A stretch of 52,440 nt of DNA from a virus (lineage: Duplodnaviria; Caudoviricetes). The stretch is taken from positions 1 through 52,440 of IMG/VR virus record IMGVR_UViG_3300032069_000016; one strand, given 5' to 3'. Shown in pieces: positions 50,973 through 52,440 of this stretch (the first letter of the stretch is position 1; every line of letters starts with the position of its first letter). The translations under genes were made by a program, and so were the position numbers. The notes beneath the pieces were generated by a model. It did no database searches. It was given only the letters and a program-made list of their open reading frames with translations, and was not told where the DNA came from.

Positions 50973-52440
50973 TTATTTTAATCTTCGTCTTATCGCTTCT
51001 TTTACATCGGATGGAAGCGAATCTGGATTTACTTTCCTGCCCAAGTGAGAACCTTCGGTTACATCGCCCACATACTGATTAAAACCTGCTGGCGATTGGG
51101 CATCGCTACTCATACCGAAATTCCCTTGAGGCGTGATTATTGTATAGCGGTCTTCGGTCTTGCCACCATTATCATATACGGTTACGCCTTCAAATTCTTC
51201 CGACTTCATCATTTCCAGTTTATCTTTATGTCCCGCTTCATCTTGTGCCATAGCATTGAATTCCGAAGCGTGTTCGGGATTCTTTTCCGCTAAATCCTGA
51301 TAGTGTTCTGTGCCTTCTTCTTCGTCTTTAATTTCATCTTCAAAATCTTTAAGCAATCCCCCAACTCGTTCAGCGTGGTCTTTCCTGATTTTGCCGATTA
51401 CCTTCTTCCAATACTCCTTGAAAAGTTTGGTCTGGGAAATTGATTTTTTAATTTCGTTTTCTTCGCATATCTCATCAACGATTTTATTTTGGTTTACCGC
51501 TTTAAGTCCCGCTCTATCATCCGCATCCTTAACCCAATCAAGAGTGTCATCTATCGCTTGCCGAACATTTCTTTCCACTTCTGCTCTTGTCCTAAAATCC
51601 CCGTAATTGTTTTCAGCAACAAGTTTTACTTCGCCTTCCACCCCATATGCAAGTTGCCCTTTGGTTTTGGTTTGTTTCCAGAAATCTTTGAAGGATTTAG
51701 TCTTTTTTGTCTCTCCTTCCAAATCCTGTTCTGCAAGCAATGACTTGGGAACTGGGCCAGCTCCTTCAATGCCCATATCTTTTTCCATATTGAAATCGTG
51801 AGATAATCTTTCTATTTCAGAATACGCTGCCTCCCAAGTTTCAAATGCCTCAACGGGGAGCTTTTCTTTGACATACTCAAATACTTCATCATTATTATAA
51901 ATGCCTTGTTTATTCGCTTCTTTCACCAATCTTCTAACTTCGGCTTTCCACTTGGCACCAATAGTCCTCTGCTTCTCTATTCGGGTTTTCTGCATAACCC
52001 TATCCAGCATCCTGAATGCCTCTTGGCAATCATCATAGATTGCCTTGACTTGTCTCCAATCCCCTTGAATCTCTCCATAGGTAGCCATACCGCTTCCCCA
52101 ACTGCCGCTATATGTTTCTTCTCTCCTTACCACAACGGGGCCTTGGTCTGTCCTGACTCGCAAACTATCTCTGTCAATAACTTTAATGAACGGGAAGCTT
52201 TGTTCAACTTCTTTTCTGGCTTCGGTTAAATTAACCGCCTTCTGCATCTTCTCTCCCGTTAACGGAAACGGGCCGAGGGCATCTTTCCCGAAGCCCCTCT
52301 TAACCTGTAAAACGCAGGATTCGTATTTAGGCGAATCCCGCCCGACCGCGGCGGTGCAGATAGCCCACGGATTATCTTGTTTTTCCACATCAATCATTTT
52401 GCAGATTGCTTCCTTTTCCGTCTTGGTTAATTCCGTTGCC
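50973..52440 (-). CDS. Body of the 499-aa head-region multidomain protein (start at 123, across the join)
   Basis: Internal FKDFWK and FKEYWK motifs, capsid-like AGPVPKSLLAEQDLE, C-terminal YDNGGKTEDRYT module. Confidence 0.85.
   Translation of the reverse strand, partial: ATELTKTEKEAICKMIDVEKQDNPWAICTAAVGRDSPKYESCVLQVKRGFGKDALGPFPLTGEKMQKAVNLTEARKEVEQSFPFIKVIDRDSLRVRTDQGPVVVRREETYSGSWGSGMATYGEIQGDWRQVKAIYDDCQEAFRMLDRVMQKTRIEKQRTIGAKWKAEVRRLVKEANKQGIYNNDEVFEYVKEKLPVEAFETWEAAYSEIERLSHDFNMEKDMGIEGAGPVPKSLLAEQDLEGETKKTKSFKDFWKQTKTKGQLAYGVEGEVKLVAENNYGDFRTRAEVERNVRQAIDDTLDWVKDADDRAGLKAVNQNKIVDEICEENEIKKSISQTKLFKEYWKKVIGKIRKDHAERVGGLLKDFEDEIKDEEEGTEHYQDLAEKNPEHASEFNAMAQDEAGHKDKLEMMKSEEFEGVTVYDNGGKTEDRYTIITPQGNFGMSSDAQSPAGFNQYVGDVTEGSHLGRKVNPDSLPSDVKEAIRRRLK
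52350..52440. repeat. Terminal direct repeat, copy 2
   Basis: Identical to 1-91. Confidence 0.97.

What the first reader, a model, noticed from the sequence alone, without database searches (positions are those of the whole stretch)
51717..51782. Copy of the capsid protein N-terminal segment embedded in the 499-aa protein
The spliced capsid reads K-SVDTSF-AGPIPSSLLARQDLE. The 499-aa protein reads K-DMGIEG-AGPVPKSLLAEQDLE: 12 of 15 residues identical and the same spacing from the putative cleavage Lys. The match shows only after intron 1 is removed, so it independently supports that splice junction. Inference: this is a capsid N-arm mimic that docks the protein into the shell lattice, or that interferes with or tunes assembly.
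Basis: partly seen in the sequence, partly recalled or inferred. Interest (0 to 1): 0.8.

Follow-up and report, generated by a model that had tools for sequence, protein, structure and literature searches.

The report
Capsid-arm look-alike tag on phage cargo
A 22-residue stretch of this phage's capsid protein is copied, and kept by selection, in variable proteins encoded beside the head protease, most likely as an address and cutting tag that brings them into the head.

Summary
Window 51717-51782 (- strand) encodes K..E of the 499-aa protein. It matches the spliced capsid N-arm at 12 of 15 residues. The next best of 104,792 six-frame windows scores 7, and shuffles reach at most 8.

Intronless capsid genes of relatives carry the motif unbroken, which confirms the splice junction.

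The copy is not a DNA duplicate. Identical codons occur at only 66 of 222 identical residues.

One copy sits in the variable, mosaic protein just upstream of the protease-scaffold gene in 25 distinct related genomes. Two lack it.

Core identity is about 74%, against 7-13% in the flanks.

The Lys before the peptide matches an invariant K-S in all 25 protease-scaffold proteins and the known HK97 K103/S104 cut.

Best reading (0.5): a portable tag that copies the capsid arm, so that cargo is taken into the procapsid and cut by the S78 protease.

No binding partner is shown. It is a new variant of capsid-targeting and processing signals. The scan had noted the companion FKxFWK tag on this same genome, not on other DNA.

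The parts
51717..51782 (-). Second copy of the capsid-arm peptide (K..QDLE, 22 codons) inside the 499-aa mosaic protein
   Evidence: (47.1 bits to the 23-residue peptide profile)
50973..52440 (-). 499-aa mosaic 'slot' protein: the 488 codons and stop that lie at the right end of the window. It is made of at least six small modules that occur separately elsewhere
91..123 (-). First 11 codons of the same gene (start ATG at 123). They are reached across the 91-bp terminal repeat and carry the FKxFWK motif
49246..50970 (-). Protease-scaffold fusion protein (574 aa), with an S78 prohead protease domain at the N-end. Its start overlaps the stop of the 499-aa gene
   Evidence: (PF04586, 27.4 bits, cut-off 21)
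50344..50349 (-). K208-S209 just after the protease domain, invariant in 25 of 25 aligned protease-scaffold proteins. Inferred self-cleavage site
   Evidence: HK97 K103/S104 from passages of PMC10275583
49018..49119 (-). Capsid exon 1 (34 codons). K17 to R34 (49018-49071) is the first part of the capsid copy of the peptide
48704..49017 (-). Group I intron 1, which splits the capsid copy between R34 and Q35
48488..48703 (-). Capsid exon 2. Its first four codons (48692-48703) are QDLE, the end of the peptide
47601..48487 (-). Intron 2 with an endonuclease ORF (47672-48367; DUF559/Vsr-like)
46878..47600 (-). Capsid exon 3 (240 codons and stop)

Best explanation
The peptide is a portable tag of about 23 residues that copies the capsid protein's own segment, from the maturation-cleavage Lys through the first half of the N-arm (K-x-hydrophobic-[G/D/N]-[I/V/T]-x-x-A-G-x-x-P-x-S-L-L-A-x-Q-D-L-E). 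Variable, mosaic proteins are encoded in the slot just upstream of the protease-scaffold gene. They look like head cargo, in the manner of internal or polyvalent proteins. Each carries one such tag. Inferred mechanism: in the procapsid the tag makes the contacts that the capsid protein's arm makes with the internal assembly machinery, meaning the scaffold or protease part of the 574-aa protein, or a neighbouring capsid subunit. The tagged protein is therefore taken in. The S78 protease then cuts it after the Lys, as it is inferred to cut the capsid protein and itself. Shown here: the copy, its conservation at the protein level only, its single occurrence per protein, its fixed gene neighbourhood, and the invariant K-S sites. 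Inferred: binding, the partner, cleavage, and that the proteins are packaged.
For: (1) Recurrence. A profile of the 23 residues finds the capsid copy in every capsid gene and exactly one further copy per locus: 41 loci have one and none has two. Twenty-five distinct close-clade genomes, the window included, carry it in the protein upstream of the protease-scaffold gene.
(2) Selection on the protein, not a DNA copy. In 19 locus pairs, 547 of 855 nt are identical, and only 66 of 222 identical residues use the same codon. L023 has 13 of 15 identical residues and 0 of 13 identical codons.
(3) An island of conservation. Among 42 distinct contexts, mean pairwise identity is 0.74 in the 15-residue core, 0.25 in the 8 residues before it, and 0.07 and 0.13 in the flanks. 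The regex used to pick them fixes about 8 positions, but S at +6 (38 of 42), L at +7 (30 of 42) and P at +2 (27 of 42) were not fixed.
(4) Carrier proteins are unrelated mosaics of 145 to 1002 or more aa. The tag lies near the N-end, inside, or about 30 residues from the C-end. There is one tag per protein in 20 of 20 tagged library proteins of 135-1187 aa. A generic inter-module cut site should recur, so a single copy argues for an address tag.
(5) Cleavage Lys. K208-S209 is invariant in 25 of 25 protease-scaffold proteins. Capsid K17 is invariant in 25 of 25. A Lys lies 7 or 6 positions before the Ala of AG in 40 of 42 tag contexts. The protease is of the HK97 family (PF04586). HK97 cuts its capsid protein at K103/S104 at the start of the N-arm (passages of PMC10275583).
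(6) L097 has the tag directly after the protease domain, where the other genomes have F-A-K-S-I-P.
(7) Co-variation. The A-to-S change in LLA occurs in the capsid copy only in L015 and L017. These lie in separate well-supported capsid clades, and both have S in the second copy. The table over 25 genomes is 2/0/2/21.
(8) Precedents. The T4 capsid-targeting sequence is removed by the head protease (passages of PMC9958956). The 80alpha scaffold binds the capsid N-arm in procapsids (passages of PMC5644958). 80alpha capsid, scaffold and L27 share a motif at one protease site (passages of PMC5744158).
Against: No partner, cleavage or packaging is shown, and the phage family has no cultured or deposited member. 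Two slot proteins with ample upstream sequence (L045, L104) lack the tag yet keep FKxFWK motifs, so the tag is dispensable or another tag does the targeting. Two more loci (L091, L111) show none in the short part visible. In L097 the tag is already part of the protease-scaffold protein, where an address tag would be redundant. That favours a cut-site reading. The residue after the Lys is S, T, A, N or D in capsid copies, but D, K, A and others in the tags, so a strict K|S rule does not hold. Two tags have no Lys at either position. The co-variation is weak. L048 and L050 have S in the tag but A in the capsid. My hand count gives a hypergeometric p of about 0.02, which ignores phylogeny. The capsid model was too poor to place the arm (mean pLDDT 54.9, residues 1-48 under 50).
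Confidence: 0.5

Rival explanations
1. The peptide is only a recognition and cleavage site of the S78 head protease, shared by all its substrates (capsid protein, slot protein, and in L097 the protease-scaffold itself). It has no role in bringing the protein into the head.
For: K-S is invariant in 25 of 25 protease-scaffold proteins and K17 in 25 of 25 capsid proteins. A Lys lies before 40 of 42 tags. The tag sits right after the protease domain in L097. There is the HK97 K103/S104 precedent. In 80alpha, capsid, scaffold and L27 share a motif only because one protease cuts them.
Against: The best-conserved part is the 15 residues that start 7 positions after the Lys (0.74 identity), not the residues around it (0.25). 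That is far more than a protease subsite usually needs (my inference). The protease-scaffold's own K-S site shares only the first few residues and lacks the AG..P.SLLA.QDLE part. Multi-module proteins of up to 1187 aa have only one copy, whereas a plain linker cut site should recur between modules.
Confidence: 0.2
2. One reading: an N-arm mimic that takes the place of, or pairs with, a capsid N-arm in the shell lattice. It would anchor the protein to the inner shell wall, or modulate assembly, for example at special sites such as the portal vertex.
For: The copied stretch is exactly the capsid N-arm start. The same A-to-S change occurs in both copies in L015 and L017, which would also fit a like-with-like contact between arms. 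Phage P1 DarA is an internal protein that binds the inner face of hexons and pentons and loses its N-end to the head protease (passages of PMC12810830).
Against: Capsid-invariant L31 and R34 vary freely in the copies: L/G/K/D and R/E/D/A/M. The copy therefore does not need all of the arm's lattice contacts. Every lattice position already has its own arm (general knowledge of HK97-type shells). Two genomes do without the copy. The distant clade keeps the capsid motif with no separate copy in 6 of 6 genomes.
Confidence: 0.15
3. A relic without function of its own: a leftover of recombination or gene conversion with the capsid gene, or a copy of the intron's homing site.
For: The match spans the intron insertion point. 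The slot proteins are mosaics built by recombination.
Against: DNA identity between the two copies is 24-32 of 45 in 19 pairs, and codons differ at most identical residues. The copy is present in genomes whose capsid gene has no intron. Conservation drops to 7-13% right outside the peptide. It persists across capsid lineages down to about 61% identity.
Confidence: 0.03

Closest known systems
T4 capsid-targeting sequence (CTS) of internal proteins IPII/IPIII
   Same: A short peptide on non-essential head cargo brings it into the prohead core and is removed by the head protease. It is transferable to foreign proteins (passages of PMC9958956).
   Different: The CTS is about 10 residues, strictly N-terminal, and is not reported to resemble the capsid protein. 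Here the tag is about 23 residues, lies at any place in the carrier, and is a copy of the capsid protein's own arm. The protease is of another family (S78).
HK97 capsid maturation cleavage (K103/S104) by the gp4-type S78 protease
   Same: The protease family is the same. A Lys sits directly before the N-arm, and K-S is invariant in the protease-scaffold.
   Different: HK97 has a 102-residue scaffold domain before the cut. Here only 17 residues precede it, and the scaffold is fused to the protease. No second protein carrying the arm sequence is described for HK97 in the passages I read.
80alpha: shared N-terminal motif of capsid protein, scaffold and ribosomal protein L27 at the Prp cut site
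   Same: A capsid protein and another head protein share a short conserved sequence linked to one protease (passages of PMC5744158).
   Different: That motif is N-terminal, is removed with 13-14 residues at F|A, is cut by a host protease, and lies before the arm. Here the shared part is the arm itself, downstream of the presumed cut.
Scaffold-to-N-arm binding in procapsids (80alpha SP and SaPI1 CpmB)
   Same: It shows that the N-arm is the handle by which internal assembly proteins hold the capsid protein. It also shows that a second protein can compete by copying a binding element (passages of PMC5644958).
   Different: CpmB copies the scaffold's end, not the capsid's arm. Here the copied element is on the capsid side of the contact.
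Encapsulin cargo-loading peptides
   Same: Short peptides on varied cargo direct it to the inside of an HK97-fold shell. Some slot proteins here carry a weak rubrerythrin-like helix pair (8 of 25, all below Pfam's cut-off). This recalls encapsulated ferritin-like cargo, a comparison I make from memory.
   Different: This is a tailed phage with a portal, protease and introns. Loading peptides are not copies of the shell protein's own arm. No binding was tested.
Polyvalent proteins of phages (Iyer et al. 2017)
   Same: Multi-module, fast-shuffling proteins encoded among head genes and predicted to be packaged and injected (abstract and passages of PMC5512222). The 499-aa protein is such a mosaic.
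   Different: None of the named polyvalent-protein domains was found. That paper's passages mention no capsid-like tag.

Membership tests
T4-type capsid targeting sequence | Lies at the extreme N-terminus of the cargo, about 10 residues | tested here: not met
   The tag starts at residue 20 to 266 of carriers of 145-1002 aa, and at residue 220 of 488 in the window
T4-type capsid targeting sequence | Sufficient to bring a foreign protein into the prohead, and removed by the head protease | not testable with these tools
   Needs expression with procapsid genes
Substrate site of an HK97-type (S78) prohead protease | An S78 protease is encoded in the same head module | tested here: met
   PF04586 at 27.4 bits (cut-off 21), phrog_80 at E 6.6e-12. 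The gene directly follows the 499-aa gene
Substrate site of an HK97-type (S78) prohead protease | A conserved Lys at the cut, as in HK97 K103/S104, at the start of the N-arm | tested here: met
   Capsid K17 is invariant in 25 of 25. K208-S209 is invariant in 25 of 25 protease-scaffolds. A Lys lies 7 or 6 positions before the Ala of AG in 40 of 42 tags.
Substrate site of an HK97-type (S78) prohead protease | The bond is actually cut | not testable with these tools
   No proteomics exist and no deposited relative was found
HK97-fold capsid N-arm (true arm in a lattice) | Keeps the residues that are invariant in the capsid arm | tested here: not met
   Capsid-invariant L31 and R34 are variable in the tags. 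G25, L32, Q35, D36, L37 and E38 are kept
Encapsulin cargo-loading peptide | Cargo of a phage-gene-free shell operon, with a peptide unrelated to the shell protein's own sequence | tested here: not met
   Portal, protease-scaffold and intron-split capsid genes are present. The peptide is 12 of 15 identical to the shell protein
Polyvalent proteins | Several independent modules in one polypeptide, encoded among virion genes | tested here: met
   Separate library proteins match query stretches 1-62, 76-150, 150-221, 256-347, 352-416 and 410-488. The gene lies between the portal region and the protease
Polyvalent proteins | Carries the named effector domains of that class (MuF, peptidase, nuclease and so on) | tested here: not met
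   Only sub-threshold rubrerythrin and UPF0147 matches. The fold of modules E+F has no match in the PDB

The most novel reading that the evidence does not exclude
Phages of this uncultured family load variable cargo into their heads by molecular mimicry of the capsid subunit itself. A 23-residue copy of the capsid N-arm makes the scaffold-protease (or the growing shell) treat any protein that carries it as if it were a capsid arm, and the same protease then trims it. This would be a phage counterpart of encapsulin loading peptides, arisen by copying the shell protein. It would be usable as a short tag to load chosen proteins into HK97-type shells.
Probability: 0.4. Interest if true: 0.8.

Novelty: new variant of a known kind. 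Interest (0 to 1): 0.65.

Why it matters
How tailed phages choose which proteins travel inside the head is known for very few systems, such as the T4 CTS and P1 Dar. A targeting and processing tag that is a copy of the capsid protein's own arm would be a new and simple rule. It would explain how a fast-changing set of mosaic cargo proteins stays attached to a slowly changing head. It would point to the part of the arm that the assembly machinery reads (A-G-x-x-P-x-S-x-L-A-x-Q-D-L-E). It would also offer a short, testable tag for loading proteins into HK97-fold shells. The pairing of copy and capsid in about 25 natural genomes provides ready material for co-variation and binding tests.

Tried and rejected
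Complex prediction. I sent the protease domain (residues 1-180), the scaffold C-terminal part (436-574) and the tag region (196-262), each with its alignment. The result was 'no answer', score 0.00 against a mark of 0.32, and controls were not run. This is neither for nor against binding.

Capsid model from 25 aligned sequences. Mean pLDDT was 54.9 and residues 1-48 were under 50. It gives only a hint that the arm is a helix (2-17), then coil (18-30), then a helix (31-45). I did not use it as evidence.

Closest solved capsids by sequence. The matches are remote (9vel, 9row, 5lii) and do not cover the arm.

Search for the carrier in IMG/VR by peptide patterns found no relative. Searches with P0054 and P0088, which carry the S variant, returned only contigs already held. 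My planned out-of-sample test of the A/S co-variation therefore could not be done that way. The metagenome scan instead gave two discordant genomes, L048 and L050, which weakened the co-variation.

A search for a third co-varying column in the protease-scaffold gave a few candidates (A171, I501). With only two events this has no power, so I dropped it.

N-terminal extensions of the distant-clade protease-scaffolds have no BLAST match to the slot-protein modules.

Function of the cargo. Pfam and PHROGs on the whole protein and on six modules gave only sub-threshold or unnamed matches. The atlas gave nothing. The profile of modules E+F against PDB sequences gave nothing below E 0.19. A good model of modules E+F (pLDDT 86.6) has no PDB fold match at E <= 0.001, and matches only uncharacterised phage proteins in BFVD.

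Rejected readings: a recent DNA duplication or gene conversion, and an intron homing-site copy. Both are rejected on the codon data.

Literature. My searches listed no paper describing a capsid N-arm copy in a cargo protein. I read listings and passages only. Supplements were not opened and may hold cleavage-site tables that bear on S78 specificity.

Full report
What the window is. The window is a whole virus record of 52,440 bp whose first 91 bases repeat at its end. The head genes lie on the - strand. In order they are: the portal (2109-4622; phrog_2662, E 4.6e-37), three small or unknown genes, the '499-aa' gene, a 574-aa protease-scaffold fusion, and the capsid gene in three exons. The 499-aa gene starts at ATG 123 and continues across the repeat to 50973, so 488 codons are seen at the right end. 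The protease-scaffold carries PF04586 Peptidase_S78 at 27.4 bits against a cut-off of 21. The first capsid intron is a group I intron by Rfam (RF00028, 62.8 bits). The second holds a DUF559/Vsr-like endonuclease ORF.

The observation. Window 51717-51782 (- strand) encodes K220-E241 of the 488 visible residues. Capsid exon 1 ends ..SLLAR and exon 2 begins QDLE. Joined by coordinates, the exons give a 346-aa product with no stop. It aligns without a gap to the intronless capsid protein of L003, 297 of 346 identical. The 15-residue match is 12 of 15. The next best among 104,792 six-frame 15-mers is 7, and 30 shuffled windows reach 6-8. Most relatives have the motif unbroken in an intronless capsid gene. 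L009, L033, L035, L087/L106 and L112 are interrupted at the same codon.

Not a DNA copy. In the window the two 45-nt stretches share 33 bases, counted by eye. In 19 locus pairs of relatives, 547 of 855 bases are shared, and only 66 of 222 identical residues use the same codon. L023 has 13 of 15 identical residues and no identical codon. This excludes recent duplication, gene conversion and a homing-site copy. It shows selection on the peptide.

Recurrence. A capsid exon-3 query gave 38 IMG/VR loci. A capsid alignment gave 78 metagenome loci, many of them the same contigs, and one contig binned into a MAG. A 23-residue profile finds the capsid copy in all capsid genes. It finds exactly one more copy in 41 loci and never two. 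After removing duplicates, 25 distinct genomes of the close clade, the window included, carry the second copy. The close clade is defined by capsid exon-3 identity of 61% or more. The copy always sits in the protein encoded upstream of the protease-scaffold gene, mostly directly upstream. L045 and L104, with 2.2 and 5.2 kb of upstream sequence, lack it. L091 and L111 show none in the 1.0 and 0.8 kb visible. In the distant clade (49-56% identity), 6 of 6 genomes with at least 5.2 kb upstream have no separate copy. A seventh, L097, has it inside the protease-scaffold protein, directly after the protease domain. In a library of 1.84 billion representatives, 484 proteins match parts of the 499-aa protein at E <= 0.001.

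The carriers. The 499-aa protein is a mosaic. Different library proteins match only residues 1-62, 76-150, 150-221, 256-347, 352-416 or 410-488, many of them as stand-alone proteins of 60-150 aa. Slot proteins in relatives are 145 to more than 1000 aa. They share little beyond the peptide: alignment A1 has a mean column identity of 9%, with the conserved columns G228, P231, Q238 and D239 all in the peptide. The peptide lies near the N-end (L004, L013), inside (window, L033), or about 30 residues before the C-end (L014, L016, L024). Mean pairwise identity is 0.74 in the 15-residue core and 0.07-0.13 in the flanks. The regex used for selection inflates the core value. No named function was found. 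Rubrerythrin-like matches in 8 of 25 are all under the Pfam cut-off. Modules E+F fold with confidence (pLDDT 86.6) but match no solved fold.

The Lys. K208-S209 after the protease domain is invariant in 25 of 25 protease-scaffold proteins, the distant clade included. Capsid K17 is invariant in 25 of 25. In the tags a Lys lies 7 (29 of 42) or 6 (11 of 42) positions before the Ala of AG. The protease family is that of HK97, whose capsid protein is cut at K103/S104 at the start of the N-arm (passages of PMC10275583). Cleavage after this Lys is therefore a well-founded inference, but it is not shown.

What the downstream 15 residues do. They are the best-kept part of the tag, so a cut site alone does not explain them. 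They keep capsid-invariant G25, L32, Q35, D36, L37 and E38, but not L31 and R34. The tag therefore needs only a subset of the arm's contacts. In 80alpha procapsids the scaffold's C-terminal helix holds the capsid N-arm (passages of PMC5644958). In T4, a short targeting sequence brings internal proteins into the core and is then removed by the protease (passages of PMC9958956). By analogy I read the tag as a copy of the handle by which the assembly machinery holds the capsid protein, joined to the capsid's own cut site. One copy per carrier, whatever its number of modules, fits an address tag better than a linker cut site.

Co-variation. The capsid copy reads LLS instead of LLA only in L015 and L017. 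These sit in separate well-supported capsid clades, next to L006/L007 and L012/L025, which read LLA. In both, the tag also has S. L048 and L050, however, have S in the tag and A in the capsid. Over 25 genomes the table is 2/0/2/21. My hand calculation gives p of about 0.02 and ignores phylogeny. It is a hint of a shared partner, nothing more.

Against my reading. Two genomes lack the tag. L097 has it where targeting is not needed. The residue after the Lys is not S in most tags. No partner is known. P1 DarA shows that an internal protein can bind the inner shell wall and lose its N-end to the head protease (passages of PMC12810830).

Comparison and novelty. The closest known kinds are the T4 CTS, the HK97 K/S maturation site, the 80alpha shared cut-site motif (passages of PMC5744158), encapsulin loading peptides and polyvalent proteins (PMC5512222). 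None is described as a copy of the capsid's own arm in the papers and passages I saw. Five literature searches listed no such case. The family has no relative among 50,697 deposited phage genomes. I class it as a new variant of a known kind, namely capsid-targeting and processing signals. Interest is 0.65. The pattern is solid and directly testable, but the mechanism is inferred.

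Noticed in passing
window 91-123 (-), 45065 (-), 45606 (-); L032, L035, L037, L040 protease-scaffold N-ends; L045:1460-2194, L104:4026-5261: A second short motif, FKxFWK-like, starts the 499-aa protein and two small genes after the capsid gene, and recurs inside the 499-aa protein just after the peptide. In the distant clade it starts the protease-scaffold protein itself. The two slot proteins that lack the arm-like peptide still carry it. It may be the more general head-cargo tag, or a module-boundary mark.
   Followed up: partly
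window 50344-50349 (-): K208-S209 after the protease domain (F-A/E-K-S-I/V-P) is invariant in 25 of 25 protease-scaffold proteins. It resembles the first residues of the capsid motif (F-E/A-K-S-V). It is a likely self-cleavage site.
   Followed up: partly
L097:4588-6846: A distant-clade protease-scaffold of 753 aa has, right after the protease domain, a Cys-rich stretch, then the arm-like peptide, then further modules and Ser-rich linkers before the scaffold end. Cargo-like modules are here built into the protease-scaffold.
   Followed up: partly
P0001 (726 aa, from a 53,171-bp contig): A near-identical phage has the same protein with its first module (the NPWAICTA.VGR motif) present twice in tandem. 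This may be a real duplication or an assembly effect.
   Followed up: no
L031:1494-2009 and 2005-7353: The tagged 172-aa ORF overlaps a 1783-aa ORF that holds three modules of the 499-aa protein. It may be one giant cargo gene read through a frameshift.
   Followed up: no
L009, L033, L035, L087/L106, L112: Capsid genes of several relatives are interrupted at exactly the same codon as the window's intron 1 (after ..SLLAR). Most relatives are intronless there, so an intron comes and goes at one site.
   Followed up: partly
window 50976-51227 (-), residues 405-488: The last module is a widespread small domain (consensus VYDNGGKT.DRYTV...), found alone in proteins of 65-150 aa and inside proteins of up to 2103 aa. 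The model is confident (pLDDT over 90 in this part) with no solved look-alike. The only fold matches are uncharacterised phage proteins.
   Followed up: partly
window 51192-51386 (-) and 8 of 25 slot or related proteins: A two-helix module with an E-x-x-H motif gives weak rubrerythrin matches, all under Pfam's cut-off. It recalls half-ferritin cargo of encapsulins (a comparison from memory), but is unproven.
   Followed up: partly
L121 (7400-bp contig): A contig of this phage family (capsid 76% identical to L003) is binned into a MAG labelled Candidatus Micrarchaeota. Binning of a short phage contig is no evidence of host.
   Followed up: no
window 2109-4622 (-): The portal is 837 aa with a long C-terminal extension that is conserved in part in relatives (portal matches to residues 718-834). 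I did not examine it.
   Followed up: no
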